From: Hormiphora californensis
Taxonomy: Eukaryota > Animalia > Ctenophora
Assembly (NCBI GenBank): GCA_020137815.1
Contig: CM035358.1
Span: 7,564,001-7,628,000, forward strand
Reading direction: 5' to 3'
DNA length: 64,000 nucleotides
Part shown: piece after piece, positions 1-60,875 of the stretch
Numbering within the stretch: the stretch's first letter is position 1
How the letters are laid out: each line of letters begins with the position of its first letter
Translations under genes and position numbers: made by a program
Notes under the pieces: generated by a model
Told to the model about the DNA's origin: nothing
Database searches by the model: none
Seen by the model: the letters and a program-made list of their open reading frames with translations, nothing else

Positions 1-1263
1 GCAAAGGAGAGGACTGAGGAATGCTTGTCAAGTGTGAAAGAGTGGATGAGTGAGCACTGGCTAAAGTGCAATGAGGCAAAGACTGAATTCCTGCTGTTAG
101 GCAAAAACAGCGCCCTGGATAAGATGGCCTATCAGCCCACGGTGGACTTTGGTGGAGTGGAGATAAGCCCAGTGGACTTTACGGGGAGTACAGGGAAAAC
201 ACTAGGAGTGTTCCTTGATAGCAACCTCTCTATGGAGAGGCAAATCAACAGTGTTAAGAGGCAATGTGGTTTGTTGTTGAAGAATCTATGGCAGGTAAAC
301 CGGTGTCTAGATAGATCGACGAAGATACTCCTTGTTAAGCAGCTCATCATTTCAAGACTGGATTATTGTAATATCCTTTACCAAGGCTTACCTAAGAAGC
401 TTCTCAACAGCCTTCAGAGAGTCTTGAACTCGTGTGTCAGATTTGTTTATGGCCTACACGGTCACCAAGACACCTACATGCCATACTTGAAAGAATTGCA
501 TGTTCTTCCTGTGGAACAACGAGTCACGTTCAAAGCATGCCTTATGGCGTACAAGATTGTACATGGATTGGCCCCTGACTACCTGCAAGATCAGGTCCCT
601 GTTGATGATGGACTTCATGTGATCCGGGCTACTAGAGGAAATGCTTGGCCTGATGGCCTCAAGCTGAAGTACCCTAAGCTATCAAGTGTCAACGCGACTT
701 CCAAGTTGAGAAGAAGACGTCCGTCGGTTTACCTGCCTGAAGTCTGGAATGGGCTTCCCCTTGATCTGAGAGCTGTTGAGTCTGTGGAATCTTTCAAGTC
801 TAAGCTCAAGACTAGTCTTTTCACTGAGGCTTTTGGTGAGACTGGACTGTCCTCTTAACACTCTCCTTCTTGCTGAGGTATGTGCTCTAGCTGGTACCCG
901 TTTTTAATTATTTTTCTGTATTTAAGCTCGTGGCGAGCAGAAGTGTGAAGCATAAATTGGGGTTTTTCATAGCACGAGTGTTTTTCTGTGTTTCCAATAT
1001 ACGGACTTTTAAATCATTTTTTAGAGTTCCAGGACTCTAACTCAGTCTGCTATGTAATCAGTCACCGATAGTTATGTGAGCCGATAGTAATGTGAGCCGG
1101 TGTAATTTTTCTTTATTATTTTTGTTCTATTAGGGATAAGTTGGCGAGGTCTTACCAGTATATTAACCGTTCAGATCATCCTTCAGTGACAGCAGCAGTT
1201 TCGCTGCTCTGTCCCTGTCGGATATGGGCGGAATATAAACATAGTTATTATTATTATTATTAT
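1..1263 (+). mobile_element. L2-clade LINE, 3' portion (RT C-terminus 25-858, 3' UTR, (TTA)n tail)
   Basis: ORF with L2/CR1-group RT C-terminal motifs (WLKCNEAKTEFL, LGVFLDSNLSM, SRLDYCNILY, WNGLPLDLR..FKSKLKT), then UTR, terminal stem-loop and (TTA)n at 1245-1263; runs off the window start. Confidence 0.92.
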
Positions 1264-16990: not shown

Positions 16991-17836
16991 TCATGATGTT
17001 ACCATTTTCTCCACCCCCTCAATTCCACTCTCCCCATCCTTCTCCTCCTTCTTCTTCCTCCCATTAGCTGCAATATCCCTCGCAAGATTCTGTAATATCT
17101 CGTCCACACTATCAACTCGTGTTTTGTGTCCCTTGGCAATGGCAACGTACTGGCTGTAAGATGTAGCACGAGGATCACATGTCACCTTGCTGTGCTGAGC
17201 TAGGAGCATCGCTTGCCGGCGCTGTTTCTGTGGTGGAGAAAGAGGGTTTAGGGATTGTCGGCTGTCGCAAAAGTAAAAACTAAATTTTTAGTCACATTCT
17301 TCTTTTGAGGGAAGATGGTCTCTCAAAAGCTCAGTTTTTGATTGTTTTTCGTGAAATTGGTTTTCAAGTTTTTAACTACAGAATTCTACATACCAGTTCG
17401 GTTACAAGAACATCACAATAGTGTGAGAAATCCTCCAGACTCCTCTCAAAGGTGGGCACACCCTGTTCCCCTGATGGTCGAATTATCTGACTGTCGATGG
17501 CGGAGTTGATGGCGAAATTTACACCTGCACTCTTCATCAACAACTGGAAGGGGAGGATACAACTGTTACAATACAAGTTAATTATGGGAGGACCTGGGAT
17601 GGTACAAGTTATGGGAGGACCTAAATCACACAAAGCTGAATAAATAATCAACCGATTTATAACTCTTCCAATGACTGATCTGAGTGATCATTGAGGAAGG
17701 GAAATATAGGAATCTCTACAAGTACAGACAGATTGTTTCACAAACTGAAAGTAAGACAACTACCTACATGTAAGCTTCCTTTGACGTGATCCATTATAGG
17801 TTTCAGTTCCACGGACAAATCAGGGGATGAAGTCAT
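16991..17836 (-). CDS. MED29: Mediator subunit 29 (intersex); exons 17836-17768, 17543-17394, 17227-16991
   Basis: VKGSLH/LLMKSAGVNFAINSAID..VPTFERSLEDFSHYCDVL..TSYSQYVAIAKGH..VDEILQNLA follows the MED29 pattern; three phase-0 exons, 151 aa. Confidence 0.85.
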
Positions 17837-20741: not shown

Positions 20742-22241
20742 AATCAATCAATCAATCAAAACTGCCGCTGGCAGTGGCTTGCGCCGCAATAAATCATATA
20801 ATGTCAAGAAAACCAGCCACACTGGACAAAACTGGGTGGGGATACAGGGTGGCGCATCATGGCTAATAACACGAAGACGGGTAAGGTCTTTTGTGTGCGT
20901 TTACCATGTTACCCCACCCTGGTACCCACCGTGTCCGAACAATTTGATTCACACGTCAAGGTAATTTTAATAATAGTAATATATAATGTGCTGTGAAATG
21001 TAGTGGTGAACAAGTATCAAGTCTCCCTCTCTCGTTCTCTTTCTCATCCGAACAAAAACTATACAAACACAGCTATCTCTCCCCTTCTCACATGTAATTC
21101 ACTCAATCTCTGATCTCAACAACAGAGCCTCTCCTGATTCTAAAAATCTTCTCTGGCTCTTGCTCCCTCTTCTCCTTCAATCTCGCAACGAGATCTCTTC
21201 TCTCAGTACGTTCCTCTACAGTTCTGTCTGGAGAAATAAACACTGATTGAAAATTCTCGGAGTCCCTCAGCTGAGCAGATTTCCCCAGAATGGTCCTAGC
21301 TGTTTCCCTGCTCCTCAGTACCACCCGAACAGGACGTACTCGCTCATCACTCCTCTTCCCCAGTCTACTGACCTCCGACAAAACAGGTGCCTCATCCAGA
21401 TGCTCGAACAATTCTTTCAATCTACTGGTGTCGTTACCATCAACATTCTCGGCTAACCCATGTACTATCAGATTTGCAGATCGGTCAACTGTAGCGCTGG
21501 CAAGGGCGGCACGGATTTTAGTTGGAGCTAATGCAGATGCACACGTCTGCTTCATGGTGGTAGCAGCGGTCTCAAGGACGGACGAATAACTGTTCATTTC
21601 CTCTTTTACGACAGTCTGGACAGCAGTAATGCTACTCTCTAGCTGAGAGTCCTTCATTGAGATAATGGTGTCTTTCAGTGCACTAACCTCTTCCTGAAGG
21701 GCGATCATTTTCCGGTCACGCTCCAGTAGCTCGTCCTTGACAGTGTCGAGACGGTTTCTGTTGTGCTCCAAATGTTCCAGAAGCTTCTCTACTTCCTCTC
21801 GGGACTGATCGAGTACAGGTACAGGTGTCTCCTCCACAGTCTCAAAATGCTTTCTAGCTACCTTTGACAGGGGCAGAGATCTGAACCAAAGGAGACCAGC
21901 CATGTCTGCAATCAACTTCACCTTCTTATTGGTATCAAGACTCGAAATTTTGCTGGTAGTGATTCTGCTCTGATCAAATTCAACAGCCTCCTTGTTGGAG
22001 TCAGGGTAGCCGCCGATTCTTCTCATGATAGCCAGGATTGTCTTCTCCAGCCGGATGAAGTCCGCTGCACCTGCATTATCGAAGGGAACTGAACGTTCCC
22101 ATGCTGAAAACGTCCGATCCATCTGGAACTGGTGGGGCCGGTACAGATGTACTAGGTCAGGAACACTAACAGTTGAACAAAGTATGCAGAGCGCTTGTAG
22201 AGATACAAAATAGATAAGTGAAATGTGAGAACTGAATAAAG
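20742..22241 (-). mobile_element. ORF1-only non-LTR retroposon (CR1/L2-type ORF1, ATG 22122 to stop 21103, no ORF2), (ATTG)n tail
   Basis: Coiled coil + RRM-like ORF1 motifs (NLIVHGLAE, RLGK..RPVRVVL, VFISPDRTVEER); 3' UTR ends in hairpin actgccagcggcagt and (ATTG)n; ends delimited by a duplicated host unit. Confidence 0.82.
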
Positions 22242-22382
22242 ATCTCTTGCATTGCTCGATCCTGTTTTCCCGCACCCCGAAAAATTAAAAGGGTTTGGAC
22301 AAAACAATAGATCTTTAGACACAAACATCTAGCTGAAAATCTAACATACCCCCCACCCCCCTAACAGAACTCTGAACTGTAC

Positions 22383-41731: not shown

Positions 41732-42314
41732 CTATAGGGTCTGATGGCAGTGTAGATTAGGGGTTGGTGTGGGAGGTTCCCTGACTGGTCCTTTTTATCC
41801 TTGTCTCCATCCTCCTACCGTGCACTACTTCTGTTGGGAAAGTTTATTAGTATTTTTTAATGATTTGTGGCAGAGATAAAGATGTTTTGAAGACTGATTT
41901 AAATATGATGTATCCCAGTAATGTTTCTGGGTGAATGAAAATTAAGATATATCAATATCGCACAAGTCTCAAATCAAAATCCGAATTGCGCCATGTAATT
42001 AAAATGGAAGCATGTAGCAAGACTCACCATATTCTCGCCAGGGAAAGTTTGTAGTGATCAACATGAATCATGAAAATAACAGTAAAAAAACTCCGGCATC
42101 GACCCTCTCCCACAGAAACATAAGATCAACACAAGTACATATTATACATATTATTTGTGTACAATTTAGTTTGTCAAAACAAATTAGTCTGTCATTAGTC
42201 ACAAACAGATGCCAACTAAATCTACCCTGATACTTTTACTGTAATTCGAGTCTGTATAAAACAAAGGAAAAGGCACATGTGAATTTAGCTATGGAAGCGT
42301 GAATTATATACTTA

Positions 42315-43340
42315 CCAAAACACTGTGGTATATCACTTGACCATGATAGATCCTCCTGACATGTCAGTGTTGTGCTTCCCATTATAATACTGTTGGCAGC
42401 GCATTCGATGGTGGCAGTTGTCCCTGTTGGTGAGGCAGGCCAGTTTCCTTGTGTTGATCCTTCAACAGTAAAGGCGGGACACGCTGGTTCTGATTAGAAA
42501 GAGTGGATATCATATAAATAATATGATATTGATATGTCAACTTTATGTCAAATGATTAAACGTCTGAACCAAAATCTCCATCATGAGAAGTTTGAACCCC
42601 TCTGATCCAGCGACAACCCCGAACCCCCACACTTTGCAGTATAATAATAGTGGTACACCTAAAATACCTTTACCTGCTTTGTAGAAGTCAGATGCTGTGT
42701 CGGTACTGCCAAACATGATCTGCTCCACAACATCACCACCCCACGTTGTAACACAGCCGCTACGTGAACTATCTGCGAACAGGTAGTTCAGCACCTCAAC
42801 GTCATTACATGTGATGATGATGGCGGTCTCTGTTTTGGCAATCGTCCAGATCTTATCCACCTCCACTGGGGGTTGTACTGGCAGGTTTGTGTAGCTAGTG
42901 GTGCAGTAGGCTATCAGGTACTGCATTGTGGAGGAGAAACTTACAGCCACACCACCGATATAGCTGTTGTCCTTGTCGTACATAAACACCGTGATCTGCT
43001 CATAACTGCCCAGAGTAGAGTCCGTCTTTATCTGGAGAGGTGTTTCTTCCAGGTCCCAGGGTATCTTCACACCCCGCTCAACAGCTGTCAACCCTGAGAG
43101 AATTTAATTCAGGAATTTGGCTGCTTGATGTACTTGTTAATGATTGATGACGCGTATAAAACAGTCCCAAAGTAATCTTGATAACTGAATAAGTGAACTT
43201 GATATACTTGCTAGACCCTCTTTTACTGATTAGAACATATAAAATATATCGATTTTGATAATCATAGTTGCTTACAAATTTGTAACAAACCTGTAATGGT
43301 AGTGGTAGCTGGTCGCCACAAGCCAGCTACCGAAAGGTAA
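42315..43340 (-). CDS. Secreted protein: signal peptide + IPWDLE..PLQIKTDS domain + Sushi/CCP domain (3' end not resolved)
   Basis: MRLILVFYLSVAGLWRPATTTIT/GLTAVERGVKIPWDLEETPLQIKTDS..DFYKA/EPACPAFTV..TATIECAANSIIMGSTTLTCQEDLSWSSDIPQC, phase-1 introns. Confidence 0.8.
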
Positions 43341-43437: not shown

Positions 43438-46400
43438 CAGTTCAGATCACATTGCCGTTGCTGCGAGTTGATTTTTATCGCTCTGATTGTTATCTCTGTT
43501 TGCAACTGACCCACCGTTTGAGGATCACCGTTATTTCATGATGACGTTGCACAACGTCCCTGAAAAGGTTACCCACTTTATAAACCGTCTCATTACCCAG
43601 AGGCCCCCTACTGCATCGCCATCTAACAAGTATTCTTCGGATGAGATAGGAAGAGGATTGCATGTTGCTGATATCACTCCTGAGATGTTAAGTGGTAGGA
43701 AGTATTCGAAGAAAGGCTTAGCATTGTGTTTGTCGGAGGCATGCAAGTTACTAGTTGATCTTTCAGTCCCCAAGGGGAGTACTACCCCTAGTTCAAGTAC
43801 TACTCCGAGTAGGAGTCATCCACCTGAGGAATGGTGGCATTGTAAAGATGATGATAAGATCATTCTACATGAGGAACTAGCTGAGGCCCACCGAAAGGTG
43901 ATTGATCTTCAGGATCAAGTCATCAAGTTGAAGGACGAGATTAGAAACGTGGAGACCGCTGCAGTTACCAAGACTGTTCAACGTGATCTGAAGAGCTACT
44001 CAGCTATGCTCAGTCAGAACTGTGCAGCAGCTCTTGCTCCTATTAGGATCCAGCGGGCTGTCATCAAGGCATCTGTCCCGAAACCTGAGGAGGAGGACCG
44101 AAACAGTAATCTGATAGTATTTGGACTGCCGGAGGAACCTGCTGGAGTGACGGTTGACACCACTGTCGCGTCTTTGTTGGAGGAACTGGACGAGAAGCCC
44201 CCGATGAACAATTGTATGAGGTTGGGTACTCTAGCTGAGGGCAAGGTGAGGCCAGTGAAAGTGTCTTTAGAGTCTAGAGACAGTCTTCTTGTTTTATTGA
44301 GAAAGGCAAGTGTGCTGAGAAACAGTGAGAACTATAAGAGAGTGTATCTTGAGCCTGATCGTAGTTATGAGGAGAGACCCTAGTCAGAATTAAATACGTA
44401 TTTATTGCGCAAATACGTATTTAAATAGCGCGTAAATACGCTATAAATACGTATTTAATACGTATTTTTTGCTAATAAATAAGTAAAAGCCGCGCATTTT
44501 GCTCGTGCTGACAATACTAGCGGTGAGTTTTATGCCCAGATTGCATGCTTGAGCGCCTTACGTCGCGTAAAACGTCTCACCTTCCCTTTCCAGCCCTATC
44601 GCCAATTGCTACTCCCTTTCCCGTGCTGTAAACCTTCTGTGAAACATCTCACCTTCCCTTTCTAGCCCTATCGCCAATTGCTACTCCCTTTCCCGTGCTG
44701 TAAACCTTCTATAAAACATCTCACCTTCCCTTTCCAGCCCTATCGCCAATTGCTACCCCCTTTCCCGTGCTGTAAACCTTCTATAAAACATCTCACGTTC
44801 CCTTTCCAGCCCTATCGCCAATTGCTACCCCCTTTCCCGTGCTGTAAACCTTCTGTAAAACATCTCACCTTCCCTTTCCAGCCCTATCGCCAATTGCTAC
44901 CCCCTTTCCTGTGCTGTAAACCTTCTGTGAAACATCTCACCTTCCCTTTCTAGCCCTATCGCCAATTGCTACTCCCTTTCCGGCCGTGCTGTAAACCTTC
45001 TATAAAACCCTTGGTTCCCCTGCTACCACGACCCAAAAACTCTTGTAACAATACAAATTGGTCTGAACCAAGTGTTAGAACCCTTGGTTCCCCTGCTACC
45101 ACGACCCAAAAACCCTTGTAACAATACAAATTGGTCTGAACCACGAGTTAGAACCCTTGGTTCCCCTGCTACCACGACCCAAAAGGGCTGTAACAATACA
45201 AATTGGTCTGAACCAAGTGTTAGAACCCTTGGTTCCCCTGCTACCACGACCCAAAAACCCTTGTAACAATACAAATTGGTCTGAACCACGAGTTAGAACC
45301 CTTGGTTCCCCTGCTACCACGACCCAAAAGGGCTGTAACAATACAAATTGGTCTGAACCACGAGTTAGAGCCCTTGGTTCCCCTGCTACCACGACCCAAA
45401 AGGGATGTAACAATACAAATTGGTCTGAACCACGAGTTAGAGCCCTTGGTTCCCCTGCTACCACGACCCAAAAGGGCTGTAACAATACAAATTGGTCTGA
45501 ACCACGAGTTAGAGCCCTTGGTTCCCCTGCTACCACGACCCAAAAGGGATGTAACAATAAAAATTGGCACAAGTAGCAAGCAATAAATGATTTAAAGCAC
45601 GGGAAAGGGATTAGCAATTGGCGATAGTGCTAGAAAGGGAAGGTGAGATGTTTTACAGAAGGTTTACAGCACGGGAAAGGGGGTAGCAATTGGCGATAGT
45701 GCTAGAAAGGGAAGGTGAGATGTTTTACAGAAGGTTTACAGCACGGGAAAGGGGGTAGCAATTGGCGATAGGGCTGGAAAGGGAACGTGAGATGTTTTAT
45801 AGAAGGTTTACAGCACGGGAAAGGGGGTAGCAATTGGCGATAGGGCTAGAAAGGGAAGGTGAGATGTTTTATAGAAGGTTTACAGCACGGGAAAGGGGGT
45901 AGCAATTGGCGATAGGGCTGGACAGGGAAGGTGAGATGTTTTATAGAAGGTTTACAGCACGGGAAAGGGGGTAGCAATTGGCGATAGTGCTAGAAAGGGA
46001 AGGTGAGATGTTTTATAGAAGGTTTACAGCACGGGAAAGGGGGTAGCAATTGGCGATACGGCTGGAAAGGGAAGGTAAGTTGTTTTAAATCGGTCAAGGA
46101 CGATGTTACAAAAGAGATGTTACAAAAACAAGATGTGCCAGTCGGCTGGGGATTGATCAAATACAAATGGAAATTGGAGTCACAATGCGGTAAATCTGCT
46201 TCCTAGCATTGTGGTAACCGTTGCCGTGCATCCAACGCGACTTTCAGGCTCAGCTTTGGACGACAAATCGGCCAAAATGCGCGGCTTAACAAGCGCGTTC
46301 TTATTTATTAGCAAAAAATACGTATTAAATACGTATTTATAGCGTATTTACGCGCTATTTAAATACGTATTTGCGCAAAAAATACGTATTTAATTCTGAC

Positions 46401-47284: not shown

Positions 47285-47850
47285 ATATCCAGCTGTGTTT
47301 CTGTGTTGAAAGATGTGGGAACGTCAGACGTGGAACTGACCACTGTAACACTCTACCTTCTTTGGAACATTCTATCTCTCAGTAAGATTTCTATTGCATA
47401 GTCGGACCCCGATTTACCGGCCCCCGATATATACCGGATTATTTTCCCAAGCATCCCGGTAAATCGGGGTTCGACTGATTATTTAAAGTACATTCAATAA
47501 GTGCATTCAATAAGGCATCAAGTTGAAATCAAAACAAATATCTTTACGATATATTCTTCTGTTCCATAATTACTTGTATATAGAGTAAGGGGCTCTCCAC
47601 TCTCCTCCTCTAACTGAGTTAGTAACTCGGCAGTTAATGATTTCGCCATTTTGTTTGTGTAACCAACTGTATATTTTCCGTAGAAGTGCTCAAAGCTAGC
47701 GATGAAGAGAGGGATGTTCTGGTGGACGTTCTGACATCCCACCTCGAATCAACTGGAGATGGGGAGGTATGGGTGGGACAGGTCCACCCTCCCACCAAGA
47801 ACCTTCTTAACCTTCTATCTCATCCAGAGTCACAATATGAGCACTTGTAG
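47285..47850 (+). CDS. ARMC2: Last two exons (47285-47381, 47684-47850) of an ARMC2-like armadillo protein; upstream exons not identified
   Basis: ISSCVSVLKDVGTSDVELTTVTLYLLWNIL..DVLVDVLTSHLE..VWVGQVHPPTKNLLNLL..YEHL* parallels the ARMC2 C-terminus (LVDCLRDLGPTDWQL..KTLWNF..WETEFKPVAQQLL..LEPL). Confidence 0.62.
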
Positions 47851-48125
47851 AGCGGTATTGTTGATTAACTTCCCTCGTAATACTGGTCACGAAACATCGC
47901 ATCAAGTTCTTGCTATGAATTGTTCAGTTATAGTGAAAGTTGTGAACAGATGTACAGGTATTCAGAGTTCATAAATATTTTGGCTACTGTGTGTATTATA
48001 TATTGTTGAAAAATGTTTAGTTGAGACTATTTTTGCTGGTCAAATCGCATTGTTTATTTCAGTCCCCCTCTCTAAATCATGCCGAGTAATCATAACATTT
48101 TCTAAATTCTCAGTATTATATAGCA

Positions 48126-51100
48126 ATGGAAATATCAGCAGAGTACTACAATAATGGTGCAACACCCCTTCCCTCCCCCCGATCTGGGAAAAGGAGGAAT
48201 TGGGAGAATGATGCACCTCCCTCTTATGACCAACTGAAAGGTATCATTTTCTCATTCTTAGATCATTCATGATGTGGTTCTACCTGATTTATCTTGTTGT
48301 TTAGTAACCAGTAACAACATTCAGCTTATCGGTATTTTACAACCCCCCCAATCCCCATTATTTGGAGGAGGCCACACCTAACAACCCCCATTATCCACCC
48401 AGGGAAGTTGTTTAAAGGATGGTATCTGCCTGTTGAGGCAGTGAGTTACCCCATCTCTGAAGAGTGGTTGGCTGACAAGAGACGGATACACATGGTGACC
48501 GTGATAGAACGATTACCTGAGTTTATAGTGGAGACAACCCGAAACCAATCTCCCCCTGCTGCACCACCACCCATAGTGGTGACAGGTGAGATTTTGGTGG
48601 GAGGAGATTTGAGTTAAATGGGGTTGTTTGGTGATTTGATGGGGTTCAATTTAAGTTTTTTAAAGAAGAAAAACCAATCTAATCGACCTCCACGCTCAGA
48701 CTCGGATGGACCCACTTCCCTCCACTCCCCGCCTGATACAATGGATATTCTCCCAGTAAACCACTGGTGCGAGGACTGTGATGGTCGAGTTTCACCACCA
48801 ACTAACTTGTTTATACTGATGGAGTATCTGTTAGAATTATCTGTACCACAGCACCTACTCGGGCATTTCTCTGCATTCAAGGTATTTACATAACATTTCT
48901 AGCTTCTATCGTTTTCGGTGTAAACCCTCTCTAGGTCTCAGACAATCCCCCCTAGCCCCGCCTAATGTTTATCACTGACTCACCTCCCCAGGATCGCCTA
49001 AAAGACTCCTCGCCCCGGTACCGACCCCACTCCGCCAAGGCACCCCATCACTGGGTGTTCGTGGCATGTCATTGTGACGTATCTAGTTGTCGGGGGAACT
49101 TTTATCATAGTCTGACTAACTTTGTACCAGTTTTGGTTGTCCCATGGGAGCGATATAATACTTTTGTGAAGGTATAATAGCATCTTTCTATCTCTGTCTC
49201 TATGTCTTTCCATGCCTGTCTGTCTCTGTCTCCCCATGCCTGTCTGTTTCTGTCCTTATCTCTAGCTCTGTCTGATTACTCTCTACCCTTATTTGTCAGA
49301 CATGTGGGGGTAGTCATGTTATACTCCGACTACCCCAACACGGACCCAGAACTACTGGTCACACTAAATACTGGATCCAGCGTGTTGCCCAGAAGTTATC
49401 TCTTGGACATGTCTGGATTGTTGAGGACCAGGTTCGGGGGTTTTACAAAACTGAACCAGGACACCCCGTACCAACCCGGAGAGATGGTGAGTGGGTGTGA
49501 TCACACACTTTATTTAGACTTACATCTACTGAAAGTTGTGATCCTTCAATAAAATTGTGATGAACTGATACAAATGATTAGGAAGACTTCAATTAGTTAG
49601 TAAAGCATATATTTGAACATCAAGCTTCAGGGCACGTAGTTCAAACTCAAATCAAAGTGAAAATATACATATTACATGTAAGACGTCTACTATCTACTGT
49701 CTACTCTTTTATAGCAGTTGAATTATATCTTTGGCTCAAAAACGTTTGCCAATGGGGCAGCATAATCCATAGAACGATAATCCCAAGGATAAGTTTACAA
49801 AGATTTATGAGTACACATTTGATTTTGTGTAACACAAACTTGTCAGCAGTAATCATGAGTGAACAGATATCGCACTTGATTTTCCTTTTCTTGCACCGTT
49901 TTACGAGATGTCCAGAGAGACAGTTGGCAGGAAAAGTCTCAGGGCAATTGTTTGGGCAGTCTATAATCCGATAAGGGCAGCTGATCCGTAAGTGTTCAGT
50001 GATTGTGTCTTTAGCACCAACTTTACCACAGCCACAATGGACAATCCTCTTGGGGCAAAACAGCACCTTGTGATCTTCTAAACCCCTGAATTCCAATTTC
50101 TTCTGACACTTTTGACAAGTAACAAGACGATAGTTGCAAGATTGCATATGATCGCTGATGCGATTTTCAATTTGCTGACAATGTGGACATCTATCTTTTC
50201 GCTGGGCACATTTGGTTGATCGATGTTCGGCAAAGTCCTCTCTCCACACATTGATTTCACAGTCCGTACATCTTAGGACATCTTTTGGGCAAACGTGATG
50301 CTGGTACACCTTTACTGTCATCATTTTCTCGCACGTTCGACACTGAACACTTCTGTATAGGCATTCTGATCTGTCATGCCTATCCATTTCAGTCAATTTT
50401 AAAGTGACTGAGCATTTAGGACATTTAACTTGTCTTTCCGGGCATTTTGTTTCATGGAGGTCAATACTTCGATCAGGAAATGTATCTCCACAGTACTCAC
50501 ATTTGACTGGCCGCTCACGACAGGATCTTTTGTGGGGCACTAGTGTCTTTGCAGTAAACCTATTTTTACAGTGCTCGCAATCAGCTGGACGTTCCGGACA
50601 GAATCTTTTGTGATTTTCAACTTCTCGAGCAGGAAAACTGTATCCACAGTGCCCACATTTGACTGGCCGTTCAGGACATGAAATCTCGTGGAGCCCAATT
50701 CTCCAAGCAGGAAACTTATTCATGCAGTAATCGCAATCAACTTGACGTTCCGGGCAAGATCCTTTGTGGTCTTCAAGTTTTCGATCAAGAAATGTATCTC
50801 CACAGAGTTCGCAATCGACAGAACGTTCAGGACAGGATTCCTCGTGGGTTTGAAGTTCTCGGGCTTTAAATGTTTTGTCACAGTGCTCACAATCTTCTGG
50901 ACGTTCAGTACAAGACTCTTCATGGGGTTGAAGTTCTCTAACTAGCAATGATTTAAAACAGTACTCACAATATACAGACCGCTCAGGACAGGATCCAATA
51001 TGGGCTAGAAAATGTTGTACTTGAAATGTTTTTTTACAATAAATGCAATTGACAGGTCGTTCAGGACAGGATCTTTTGTGGGACACTATCGTCTGAGCAG

Positions 51101-53441
51101 TAAACCTGTTTTTACAGTAATCGCAATCAACTGGACGTTCCGGACAAGATCTTTTGTGATTTTGAATTTCGCAAGCTATAAACCATTTATTCCTGCAGTG
51201 CTTGCAATCGTCCGGACGTTCCGGACAAGATCTAATTATATCGACTAGAAAATGCTGGACTTGAAATGTATCTCCACAGAGCTCACATTTGGCTGGTCTT
51301 TCAGGACAGGATATTTCGTGGAGCCCTATTGTCCGAGCAGTAAACCTATCACTGTTACAGTAATCGCAATCAACGTGACGTTCCGGACAAGATCTTTTGT
51401 GATTTTGAATTTCTCGAGCAAGAAATTTATTTCTACAGTGCTCACATTTGACTGGTCGTTCAGGACATAGGAGTTGATGTGCCAAAACCTGGGGCATTGA
51501 ACCAAATCTTCTACAATATTTGCACGTCATTGGCCTTAGAGGGCAGGACTGTTGATGGGATTGTGTAACTTTTGCTGGGAAGTGAATCTCACAAAACTCA
51601 CACTCAACTGGCCGTTCTGCACAAGATAATTGGTGTAACCGAAGTGAGCTGGCTCTCATTTTTCCCTCACAGTGGTCACACTCAATCGGCCGTTCTGCAC
51701 AAGAATTCTCCCCGTGATCAATTAGCTGGCAAAACTGCAACTCCACTGAGCATAGCTCACAGTTCACAAGACGCCTTGGACAACGGCTCTCACTATGACT
51801 TGATAGGTTCTCAAAATTTAGAGTCGCCTCGCATTGGGTACATTTCACTGTTCGTTTTGGACAAACGCTCCGACTATGTTCCTTCCTATCACAAAGGGGA
51901 ATCATTTGCTTACATTTCTTACATGGAACAAGCCGCTTAGAGCACACCATTTCTATGTGGTGAGTTAGATCAGAATTCCGAATTGATAAAGAGCAATGAG
52001 GACAGTTCACCATTCTTCCCGGGCAGAGTTTATTAGTGTGGTTCGGCAGTGCGTCCAAAGTTATACTAATCTTACATTTGTTGCATATGACAAGGCGCTT
52101 CGGACAGGAGTCATCTAGATGGGGTTGTAGAGCATCCCAGGCCATTTCCCCATGACATTGATCACATTCCACGACCCTTTTCTCACAGTAGCTCTGCTGA
52201 TGTCGGTCCAAATCGCAACGTGTTACCTCTCGCCCACATAACTCACAGGGCACCTTCTGGTTTCCAATAATTCGTCGGACAGGAATTAGAATGTAGGTTG
52301 AAATGGGTCGATTTCTGCAGTTAGGACAGGAGGTACATCGGATGATACATCCTTCACAGTAGAGTTGGTGGCAGCAGTTGGTAGCGACTGCATCCTTGCA
52401 AACATCCAGACAGATTAGGCAGTTGAACTCATCTGACATCTACCTGTATAAAGATTGATAACTAAATAATAAATAAAAGATGTTGTACAGACAGTCACCA
52501 AGTTCCAACAGACAAGAAACAAAACAAGCAAAACATCACAGATATTTGAAACCTGGTCTGATAACAGCTCTCATGTGATATTTTAGTTATAAAATGTAAC
52601 ATGCGTCATGAGGCAGAATGAACAATATCATATTTGCTGTTATATGATATTATGATGGAGCAAAGGAAGGCACACTGCCACACTGGGACGTGTACCTACT
52701 GGGAAAAGACAATAGGAAGGGAAAATATTACGTTTGTCACGCGGCAATATGAAGCAAGGGAAGTGTTAGTGGGGTCACGATAATTAAGCTTCCAATAGCG
52801 CTAGCCAATAATTTAACAAACTACAAATCCCCCAGGAACGAAATGGAGTTTTGACAGAGAACAGGTGTCCTCACGTCAGGTATCTTTTGGGGAGATTGTG
52901 GGCTGTTTGGAGGAGGTGATGAGGGGAGAAGAGAGTAGTGATAACCCAATATGTGCCATCGGTCCTACCACTCAGGTGATTAAAATACAAGTTAATTTCA
53001 TTGTGTTGTTCAACAATTAGGAATTGAATCGAAAAGATATCACGTGATTAACCACAAAACATACGGTTCAATTGATCCCAAAACAGTTTTATAACACCCT
53101 TCATCTAGATAGGGGCAGCTGCGGACGCATACCACTACGATATACCCTGTGGGGTCCTCCTCCTAAACCTTAGAGCAATGGGGGATCTGAAGTTCCGCCC
53201 TGAGTTACATCAGATAGAAACACAGGTATTGTTTGATAACCATCAAACTGTGGGAATTTGAGAATAATTCACTCGATCGGAGGTGGAGTTTTGTGTCTTT
53301 TTGAGCCGTGTGATTAATTGATTTATTCAACTAATTACCGGGTTTTTATTTCAGGTTTTTGGATGCGAGGCTGTCAAGTCGGGTAAACGGGTTCTTGTGG
53401 CCAATTCGTTTGTCCTTCTAGACTCCACGTGGGACTCTTGA
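48126..53441 (+). CDS. GREB1/TAGT-like GT-A fold glycosyltransferase-domain protein, 396 aa; exons 48126-48240, 48403-48585, 48700-48881, 48992-49171, 49300-49486, 52836-52975, 53109-53225, 53355-53441
   Basis: Eight exons splice in phase to 1191 nt; VLVVPWERYNTFVK..HVILRLP..TGHTKYWIQ..VWIVEDQ..VSFGEIVGCLE..ICAIG..GVLLLNL..LKF..ETQVF..SGKRVLVANSFVL follows the GREB1 C-terminal domain order. Confidence 0.7.
49701..52439 (-). CDS. Intronless RING + 31 TRAF-type zinc fingers + C-terminal hydrophobic helix (no MATH domain), nested antisense in intron 5 of the GREB1-like gene
   Basis: CLICLDVC..CCHQLYCEGC..CPNCR RING; repeated CxxC-x11-12-H-x2-4-C-P-x-R units; C-terminal LILGIIVLWIML. Confidence 0.93.
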   Translation of the reverse strand: MSDEFNCLICLDVCKDAVATNCCHQLYCEGCIIRCTSCPNCRNRPISTYILIPVRRIIGNQKVPCELCGREVTRCDLDRHQQSYCEKRVVECDQCHGEMAWDALQPHLDDSCPKRLVICNKCKISITLDALPNHTNKLCPGRMVNCPHCSLSIRNSDLTHHIEMVCSKRLVPCKKCKQMIPLCDRKEHSRSVCPKRTVKCTQCEATLNFENLSSHSESRCPRRLVNCELCSVELQFCQLIDHGENSCAERPIECDHCEGKMRASSLRLHQLSCAERPVECEFCEIHFPAKVTQSHQQSCPLRPMTCKYCRRFGSMPQVLAHQLLCPERPVKCEHCRNKFLAREIQNHKRSCPERHVDCDYCNSDRFTARTIGLHEISCPERPAKCELCGDTFQVQHFLVDIIRSCPERPDDCKHCRNKWFIACEIQNHKRSCPERPVDCDYCKNRFTAQTIVSHKRSCPERPVNCIYCKKTFQVQHFLAHIGSCPERSVYCEYCFKSLLVRELQPHEESCTERPEDCEHCDKTFKARELQTHEESCPERSVDCELCGDTFLDRKLEDHKGSCPERQVDCDYCMNKFPAWRIGLHEISCPERPVKCGHCGYSFPAREVENHKRFCPERPADCEHCKNRFTAKTLVPHKRSCRERPVKCEYCGDTFPDRSIDLHETKCPERQVKCPKCSVTLKLTEMDRHDRSECLYRSVQCRTCEKMMTVKVYQHHVCPKDVLRCTDCEINVWREDFAEHRSTKCAQRKDRCPHCQQIENRISDHMQSCNYRLVTCQKCQKKLEFRGLEDHKVLFCPKRIVHCGCGKVGAKDTITEHLRISCPYRIIDCPNNCPETFPANCLSGHLVKRCKKRKIKCDICSLMITADKFVLHKIKCVLINLCKLILGIIVLWIMLPHWQTFLSQRYNSTAIKE

Positions 53442-55638: not shown

Positions 55639-60875
<5,237 letters not shown>

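What the first reader, a model, noticed from the sequence alone, without database searches (positions are those of the whole stretch)
48126..53441. Stand-alone GREB1/TAGT (base-J glucosyltransferase-like) domain with eroded catalytic motifs
Seen: a clean 8-exon 396-aa model that the ORF track does not show. Known: the GREB1 C-terminal domain belongs to the TET/JBP-associated glycosyltransferase family, which includes kinetoplastid JGT and phage DNA-base glycosyltransferases; these have an acidic DD motif after a hydrophobic strand and a later ED/DD..F motif. Inference: this protein follows that order but reads WIVEDQ and IETQVF, so it may be a pseudo-enzyme or have altered specificity. A short free-standing form in an early-branching animal bears on GREB1 origins and on possible hypermodified DNA bases.
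Basis: partly seen in the sequence, partly recalled or inferred. Interest (0 to 1): 0.72.

Follow-up and report, generated by a model that had tools for sequence, protein, structure and literature searches.

The report
Comb-jelly pseudo-glycosyltransferase of TAGT family
An eight-exon gene, likely from a comb jelly, encodes a predicted free-standing copy of the sugar-transferase fold that decorates DNA in phages and trypanosomes, but it and its close relatives have lost most of the active-site residues, so it is likely a non-catalytic binding protein rather than a DNA-modifying enzyme.

Summary
The 8-exon, 396-aa model is real. All introns are GT-AG, every exon is collinear with full-length homologues (37-41% identity, E to 3e-109), and a contig from a related run joins exon 3 to exon 4 at the predicted splice sites. 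The protein belongs to the TAGT (PF20691) GT-A family. A close homologue folds confidently (pLDDT 79) and matches viral TAGTs and solved GT-A enzymes. Of 8 active-site positions kept 7-8 times in 42 viral and 7 times in 7 coral-type homologues, the clade keeps 2-3 and this protein 1. Lost are the strand-1 Arg, the xED catalytic-base Asp (T367) and the C-terminal donor-closing loop; a C-x-C-x4-C motif replaces the donor loop. The metal-binding Asp (D263) stays. The clade is sister to intact stand-alone coral TAGTs, so the stand-alone form is not new and this is not a GREB1 by architecture. Best reading: a conserved GT-A pseudo-enzyme acting as a binding or scaffold protein (0.65). Nothing supports DNA hypermodification. 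No activity, partner or GREB1 kinship was tested.

The parts
48126..48240 (+). exon 1 (residues 1-38), start codon; no signal peptide
48403..48585 (+). exon 2 (39-99); part of an N-terminal region shared with clade and coral-type homologues; alternative upstream acceptor at 48325
48700..48881 (+). exon 3 (100-160); HxCxxC at 121-126 (present in P0010 and P0004, absent in P0001); 3' junction supported by a contig of run X1
48992..49171 (+). exon 4 (161-220); GT-A strand 1, where P-S/T-x-x-R reads A185-C186-H-C188-D189, with C193 (codons from 49064)
49300..49486 (+). exon 5 (221-282); K243 in place of the second Arg; E262-D263-Q264 in place of DDD (codons 49423-49431)
49487..52835 (+). intron 5 (3349 nt) holding an antisense nested 912-aa RING/zf-TRAF ORF
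52836..52975 (+). exon 6 (283-329)
53109..53225 (+). exon 7 (330-368); E366-T367-Q368 in place of the ED-Y/F catalytic-base motif (codons 53217-53225)
53355..53441 (+). exon 8 (369-396) and stop; the protein ends before the family's C-terminal GG loop

Best explanation
This spliced, conserved gene encodes a predicted GT-A fold of the TAGT family that has lost most of its sugar-transfer residues, so it likely works as a non-catalytic binding or scaffold protein (a pseudo-glycosyltransferase) whose former donor loop is predicted to hold a structural metal ion. Shown: the gene model; family membership; clade-wide loss of the strand-1 S/T and Arg, the third acidic residue, the xED Asp and the C-terminal GG loop; three cysteines (C186, C188, C193) invariant in the four diverse clade members and absent from coral-type and viral relatives; retention of D263. 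Inferred: without a catalytic base and a donor-closing loop it cannot transfer sugar efficiently. The kept D263/E366 may still hold a metal or nucleotide weakly. The cysteines, in a protein with no signal peptide, bind zinc rather than form disulfides. The retained fold binds a protein partner (acceptor-like or a paralogous enzyme), as COSMC does for T-synthase. The partner is not identified.
For: Motif census: of 8 positions, 35 of 42 viral rows keep 8 and 7 keep 7; 7 of 7 coral-type rows keep 7; clade rows keep 1, 2, 2, 3, 3, 3 (window = 1). The published family signature is R...DDD...EDY/F (bioRxiv 10.1101/2023.12.21.572611, passages). The family profile aligns to TarS (E 2.8e-5), placing K243 on R75, E262/D263/Q264 on D91/D93/D94, E366/T367 on E177/D178, and the missing tail on the substrate-access loop. 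In TarS, R75A, D91A, D93A, D94A, E177A and H210A abolish activity, and D178N, R206A and S212A severely reduce it (PMC5156392, passages). The dead GREB1 mutant changes R1553, H1609, D1645, D1646, R1737 and D1742 (PMC7968844); by spacing only, these likely match the same sites. The fold is kept: AF2 of P0001 pLDDT 79.1, pTM 0.81; Foldseek viral TAGTs E to 5e-10; GT-A enzymes Z 10-12.6, rmsd about 3 A over 170-200 residues. The gene is maintained: 43-53% identity to clade members over the GT domain and silent-only differences at the one junction seen.
Against: Loss of the xED Asp alone does not imply inactivity: retaining GT-As and several inverting families lack it (PMC7185993, passages). The metal-binding Asp is invariant in all 55 rows, 5 of 6 clade rows keep DD, the P0004 group keeps the second Arg, and E366 is kept in the window, so part of the site is under constraint. 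The 8 positions were chosen from viral conservation, so the viral score is high by construction (the coral-type score is not). The fold was predicted for a homologue (49% identical in the domain), not for the window's protein, with an alignment rich in viral TAGTs that biases it to GT-A; a first model without them was poor (pLDDT 48.5). The geometry of the cysteines could not be inspected. No active paralogue or partner was found.
Confidence: 0.65

Rival explanations
1. An active enzyme or nucleotide-sugar sensor with changed chemistry: the kept D263 (DD in most members), E366 and the new invariant Q264 and Q368 form a re-wired site, for example a retaining transferase or hydrolase with another donor or a protein acceptor.
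For: D2 invariant in 55 of 55 rows; Q264 and Q368 invariant in 6 of 6 clade rows. The xED Asp is dispensable in retaining GT-As. A phage member is annotated as an alpha-glucosyltransferase, so the family spans stereochemistries. GREB1 acts on a protein (PMC7968844).
Against: The T-even alpha-type members also keep R, DDD, ED and GG. The xE position itself varies in the clade (E, H, D) and the xD position is T, F or M. The donor-closing loop is deleted. The window's protein has further lost D1 and the second Arg, which looks like relaxed catalytic constraint.
Confidence: 0.2
2. A base-J-like DNA glycosyltransferase, or a reader of glycosylated DNA bases, in comb jellies.
For: Family ties to phage beta-glucosyl-HMC-alpha-glucosyltransferase (phrog_842, E 1.6e-6 for P0004; profile probability 94%) and to JGT by the published motif.
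Against: Catalytic motifs are lost. The GT domain is neutral to acidic (net -9 to +1, against -2 to +13 in coral-type rows) and lacks the 47-84-residue C-terminal tail of viral members. No TET/JBP domain in 177 window ORFs scanned, although the genome could not be searched. The one animal member tested, GREB1, modifies protein.
Confidence: 0.06
3. The domain is not free-standing here but is the 3' part of a longer gene, spliced to the upstream + strand exons.
For: An internal donor at 47766 in the upstream exon and an acceptor at 48113/48114 would give an open frame into the ATG. No RNA covers the 5' end.
Against: The upstream exon runs on to its own stop at 47850. Homologues P0001, P0010 and P0004 are 396-464 aa and match nothing upstream in the window at E<=1. 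The transcript-like contig L002 has 4 in-frame stops before its ATG. No upstream ORF matches a GREB1 or helicase model.
Confidence: 0.06
4. A decaying pseudogene or a chance exon chain.
For: The window's copy is the most eroded member, with the longest end branch of its clade (0.54).
Against: Open frame over 8 exons, canonical splice sites, homology in every exon, the same main substitutions in expressed relatives, and silent-only differences in a relative's spliced contig.
Confidence: 0.03

Closest known systems
Stand-alone coral TAGT proteins (Stylophora pistillata PFX29926.1/XP_022783436.1; Pocillopora CAH3035683.1, XP_066027755.1), database entries only
   Same: Same architecture (N-terminal region plus TAGT, 400-600 aa), 23-30% identity to the window's protein, sister group in the tree (100/99 against 42 viral rows).
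   Different: Coral-type proteins keep PSFRR, R, DD, ED and a TGAS loop (7 of 8 sites), are mostly basic, lack the Cys triad, occur as several paralogues and appear intronless (inferred from whole ORFs called on long contigs).
TAGT family, Pfam PF20691: phage TET/5mYOX-associated GT-As, T-even beta-glucosyl-HMC-alpha-glucosyltransferase (phrog_842), kinetoplastid JGT
   Same: GT-A fold and motif order; Pfam match above cut-off for P0001 (28.9 bits) and P0004 (36.1 bits); structural hits to viral TAGTs.
   Different: R...DDD...EDY/F reads D...EDQ...ETQ; no C-terminal GG loop or tail; an extra N-terminal region of about 175 aa; no TET/JBP neighbour seen in the window.
GREB1 / GREB1L
   Same: Animal protein with a TAGT-family GT domain (PMC7968844).
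   Different: GREB1 is 1949 aa with an N-terminal Zn-binding domain and a circularly permuted SF2 helicase, and is an active O-GlcNAc transferase. This protein is 396 aa, has neither domain by Pfam and likely lacks the residues GREB1 needs. Phylogenetic kinship was not tested.
COSMC (C1GALT1C1), a GT-A pseudo-enzyme
   Same: GT-A fold kept, xED lost, non-catalytic role (PMC7185993). This is what the protein likely works like.
   Different: Different family (GT31, secretory pathway); COSMC has also lost DxD and has a known client. Here one metal-binding Asp stays and no client is known.

Membership tests
TAGT (PF20691) | Profile match above the curated cut-off (27.5 bits) | tested here: met
   Met for homologues P0001 (28.9) and P0004 (36.1); 16 of 17 members of A2 match at E<=10. 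The window's exon 5 alone gives 16.7 bits, E 0.007; the spliced protein could not be scanned.
TAGT (PF20691) | GT-A fold | tested here: met
   AF2 model of homologue P0001, pLDDT 79.1; Foldseek and VIA hits are GT-A proteins.
TAGT (active enzymes) | Strand-1 P-S/T-x-x-R arginine | tested here: not met
   R in 41 of 42 viral and 7 of 7 coral-type rows; D, S or E in 6 of 6 clade rows.
TAGT (active enzymes) | DDD metal-binding motif | tested here: not met
   EDQ in the window, DDQ in 5 other clade rows, DDS in coral-type rows, DDD in 42 of 42 viral rows; the middle Asp is kept.
TAGT (active enzymes) | ED-Y/F catalytic-base aspartate | tested here: not met
   D in 42 of 42 viral and 7 of 7 coral-type rows; T, F or M in 6 of 6 clade rows; aligns to TarS D178.
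TAGT (active enzymes) | C-terminal GG(C)S loop (my own feature from the alignment; maps to the TarS substrate-access loop) | tested here: not met
   G in 37 of 42 viral and 7 of 7 coral-type rows; clade proteins end 2-8 residues after the last aligned column before it.
TAGT / JGT (DNA-base glycosylation) | A TET/JBP or hydroxymethylase supplying the acceptor base | tested here: inconclusive
   No such domain in 177 window ORFs; no whole genome is held.
TAGT / JGT / GREB1 | Sugar-transfer activity on hmU/hmC DNA or on protein | not testable with these tools
   Needs a bench assay.
GREB1/GREB1L | N-terminal Zn-binding domain plus circularly permuted SF2 helicase before the GT domain, about 1900 aa | tested here: not met
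   396 aa; no GREB1-type Pfam model in 17 members at E<=10 or in 81 ORFs scanned from 26-48 kb; homologue L002 has upstream in-frame stops. An in-frame splice to an unrelated upstream gene is not excluded.
GREB1/GREB1L | Groups with GREB1 GT domains in a tree | not tested
   No GREB1 or JGT sequence was returned by any search, so none is in the tree.
GT-A pseudo-enzymes (COSMC type) | Fold kept, DxD and xED lost | tested here: inconclusive
   xED Asp lost; DxD only partly lost, as D263 is kept.
GT-A pseudo-enzymes (COSMC type) | No activity; binds or chaperones an active partner | not testable with these tools
   No candidate partner was found.

The most novel reading that the evidence does not exclude
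Non-bilaterian animals carry their own lineage of free-standing TAGT proteins, apart from GREB1. Intact members (corals) write a sugar onto a DNA base or a nuclear protein. The comb-jelly branch turned into a zinc-plugged pseudo-enzyme that reads or shields that mark, and gained its introns independently in different comb-jelly lineages.
Probability: 0.08. Interest if true: 0.85.

Novelty: new variant of a known kind. Interest (0 to 1): 0.42.

Why it matters
It shows that the phage/trypanosome DNA-glycosyltransferase family has a second, short architecture in early-branching animals besides GREB1, with a near-intact coral branch and an eroded, still conserved branch that is likely comb-jelly. 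That gives a natural pair for testing what animal TAGTs glycosylate and how a GT-A becomes a pseudo-enzyme. The intact coral proteins, not this one, are the better candidates for any DNA or protein glycosylation. The finding is no evidence of hypermodified bases in this animal.

Tried and rejected
No whole genome is held, so paralogues and TET/JBP genes could not be sought genome-wide. No RNA holder of the locus was listed; the one run laid covers one junction only. The 422-aa model I first built was dropped for the 396-aa one. Word-index searches for longer proteins found nothing (exon 5: 0 of 105 candidates; alignment A3: 0 of 4322); this is weak evidence, and no GREB1 was retrieved. Pattern scans with animal alignments found no relative in viral contigs (0 of 26) or prokaryote genomes (0 of 15), and 1 of 234 in metagenomes. 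The first AF2 model (P0004, 17 rows) was poor (pLDDT 48.5) and its Foldseek search had no hit at E<=0.001; it is not used as evidence. A PDB sequence search with A1 gave only E 0.77 hits. Exact look-up of 6 window ORFs found none. A comb-jelly leader pattern had 0 matches in the window, which is uninformative. The N-terminal 175 residues were not folded or searched alone, so their fold is open. No complex prediction was run, as there is no candidate partner. [quoted passage not shown] Iyer et al. 2013 (PMC3763556) is not held, and Fig. S3A of PMC7968844 is a picture of which I saw only the legend; either may already list stand-alone cnidarian or ctenophore TAGTs.

Full report
Observation. The region yields an open 8-exon frame with GT-AG introns. 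My first build used an exon-2 acceptor at 48325 and gave 422 aa. WIVEDQ (259-264) and IETQVF (365-370) are as described. Intron 5 is 3349 nt and holds an antisense 912-aa RING/zf-TRAF ORF; nested genes are common in comb jellies (PMC8527503, passages). The one public run offered (X1, RNA by guess, sharing next to none of the window's words) has a 380-nt contig on exon 4 whose loose end is exon 3 joined at the predicted sites. Over 9 codons the residues are identical and all 6 differences are silent. This supports one of seven junctions, in a relative.

Organism. I have no direct test. Earlier unchecked notes on the same genome call it a comb jelly. The closest homologues are unnamed. One of them, L002, begins with 13 letters that match the 3' end of the published Hormiphora leader at 11 positions (compared by eye), which is suggestive only.

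Homologues. phmmer with exon 5 over 1.84 billion representatives gave 7 hits at E<=0.001. Four (P0001-P0004) are unnamed proteins on short contigs (0.85-3.6 kb). Three are more distant, of which P0005 is named Stylophora and the P0006 cluster has named Pocillopora members. A profile search added paralogues of the second type and two exon fragments of the first (11 hits among 7994 candidates). I call the second type 'coral-type'; 5 of the 7 rows used are unnamed. The spliced model is 37-41% identical over nearly its whole length to P0001, P0010 and P0004 (E 3e-109 to 4e-94) and 22-30% to coral-type proteins. Every exon contributes.

Family and fold. P0001 and P0004 pass the Pfam TAGT cut-off. 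The family matches phrog_842, beta-glucosyl-HMC-alpha-glucosyltransferase, in 7 of 7 proteins tried. The ESM atlas gives viral TAGT clusters at 0.95. I collected 46 non-redundant viral TAGTs and aligned 42 with 12 animal rows. With this alignment P0001 folds at pLDDT 79.1, pTM 0.81. Foldseek gives viral TAGT-type proteins first (E 5e-10) and solved GT-A enzymes; VIA gives GT-A enzymes at Z 12.6-9.5, e.g. GnT I Z 12.5, rmsd 3.1, 183 aligned. The window's own protein could not be folded; P0001 is 49% identical in the domain, and the alignment leans the model towards GT-A.

Active site. The published signature is R...DDD...EDY/F (bioRxiv 10.1101/2023.12.21.572611, passages). In my alignment (residue numbers corrected by +1): strand-1 S/T, 42 of 42 viral and 7 of 7 coral-type, is Cys in 6 of 6 clade rows. 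The strand-1 Arg (41 of 42; 7 of 7) is D, S or E. The second Arg (40 of 42; 7 of 7) is K, H, N, R, R, R. DDD (42 of 42) is DDS in coral-type rows, DDQ in five clade rows and EDQ here; the fragment P0003 also has EDQ. The Asp of ED (42 of 42; 7 of 7) is T, F, T, M, M, M. The C-terminal GG loop is absent because clade proteins stop before it. Summed over 8 sites the window keeps 1, other clade rows 2-3, coral-type rows 7, viral rows 7-8 (sites were picked from viral conservation). The family profile aligns to TarS, which assigns roles: K243 to R75, E262/D263/Q264 to D91/D93/D94, E366/T367 to E177/D178, and the missing tail to the substrate-access loop. In TarS, D93 binds Mn, D178 is the proposed base, and mutation of these residues abolishes or severely lowers activity (PMC5156392, passages). 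So the base, the donor-closing loop and the strand-1 Arg are gone, while the metal-binding Asp and the sugar-binding Glu remain. In place of the donor loop the clade has C-x-C-x4-C (C186, C188, C193), invariant in the window, P0001, P0010 and P0004. The protein has no hydrophobic leader or membrane helix, so zinc binding is my inference, not a result. Against inactivity: many GT-As work without the xED Asp (PMC7185993, passages), and Q264 and Q368 are invariant in the clade.

Stand-alone or GREB1. GREB1 is 1949 aa with a Zn-binding domain, a permuted SF2 helicase and the GT domain, and O-GlcNAcylates a protein (PMC7968844, passages and supplement legends; review PMC6163654, passages). Pfam finds only TAGT in 16 of 17 family members and no GREB1-type model. 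Homologue L002 has 4 in-frame stops upstream of its ATG. In the window a separate + strand gene ends at a stop at 47850, but an internal donor at 47766 could splice in frame to an acceptor 12 nt before the ATG, so a fusion is not excluded. Searches for longer forms were blank, which is weak. The tree of 55 GT domains puts the window in a clade of 6 (100/98), sister to the 7 coral-type rows (100/99 for the 13 together). It holds no GREB1 or JGT and has a long-branch warning at its base, so origin from GREB1, from viruses or from an older animal gene is undecided. An earlier unchecked note reports a coral family of helicase-TAGT-ankyrin genes, so derivation by domain loss is a live option.

DNA link. 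Nothing supports it. The clade's GT domain has net charge -9 to +1 and lacks the viral C-terminal tail. No TET/JBP domain appeared in 177 window ORFs (81, 96), and the genome could not be searched.

Mechanism. I commit to a conserved GT-A pseudo-enzyme (0.65): the fold is kept as a binding surface, the donor loop is likely locked by a metal site, and sugar transfer is likely lost. An enzyme or sensor with re-wired chemistry has 0.2, a DNA-base writer or reader 0.06, a longer fused gene 0.06, a pseudogene 0.03.

Novelty. GT-A pseudo-enzymes are a known kind (COSMC) and stand-alone coral TAGTs are already in databases. I found no paper describing this eroded clade or stand-alone animal TAGTs in the search listings, but the key survey (Iyer et al. 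2013) was not held and the alignment figure of PMC7968844 could not be seen. Searches were seen as listings; PMC7986045 was read as passages and added nothing. Verdict: real, a new variant of a known kind, interest 0.42.

Noticed in passing
window 49701-52439 (-), inside intron 5: Nested antisense single ORF of 912 aa: RING finger, 14 zf-TRAF Pfam stretches (28 CxxC-H-C units), no MATH domain hit, and a hydrophobic helix at 876-894 that may be a tail anchor; a splice acceptor lies just before its ATG. Contigs of run X1 match its RING region.
   Followed up: partly
P0040/P0041/P0067 against window exons 5-6: In the P0004/P0014 lineage a genomic exon appears to span window residues about 265-308, so at least three intron positions differ from the window's gene; coral-type genes appear intronless. 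This suggests independent intron gain (inferred from where homology starts and stops).
   Followed up: partly
P0005, P0006, P0007, P0033-P0038: Coral-type stand-alone TAGTs form a multi-copy family with near-intact active sites and acidic or repetitive termini; they are better candidates for real activity than the window's gene.
   Followed up: partly
window 47285-47381 and 47684-47850 (+): Last two exons of an upstream gene with no Pfam match, ending 276 nt before the ATG of the finding.
   Followed up: partly
L002 1-19: The 5' end resembles the 3' end of the ctenophore spliced leader (11 of 13 letters).
   Followed up: partly
window 42239-43103 (-): Exons of a minus-strand gene with a Sushi domain (E 2e-6) and an unannotated 186-aa ORF.
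   Followed up: no
window 43487-44383 (+), 21103-22284 (-): Two related LINE ORF1-like frames (recognised from recall, no Pfam match at cut-off), next to tandem-repeat arrays at about 44560-46080.
   Followed up: no
window 17379-17687 (-), 58711-59073 (+), 1-855 (+): Med29 exon (E 1e-4), HTH_psq (E 5e-6) and a reverse-transcriptase remnant (E 0.009).
   Followed up: no
L029, L016, L015, L046, L067, L072, L073, L077, L091: Nine of the viral loci carry two TAGT genes close together.
   Followed up: no
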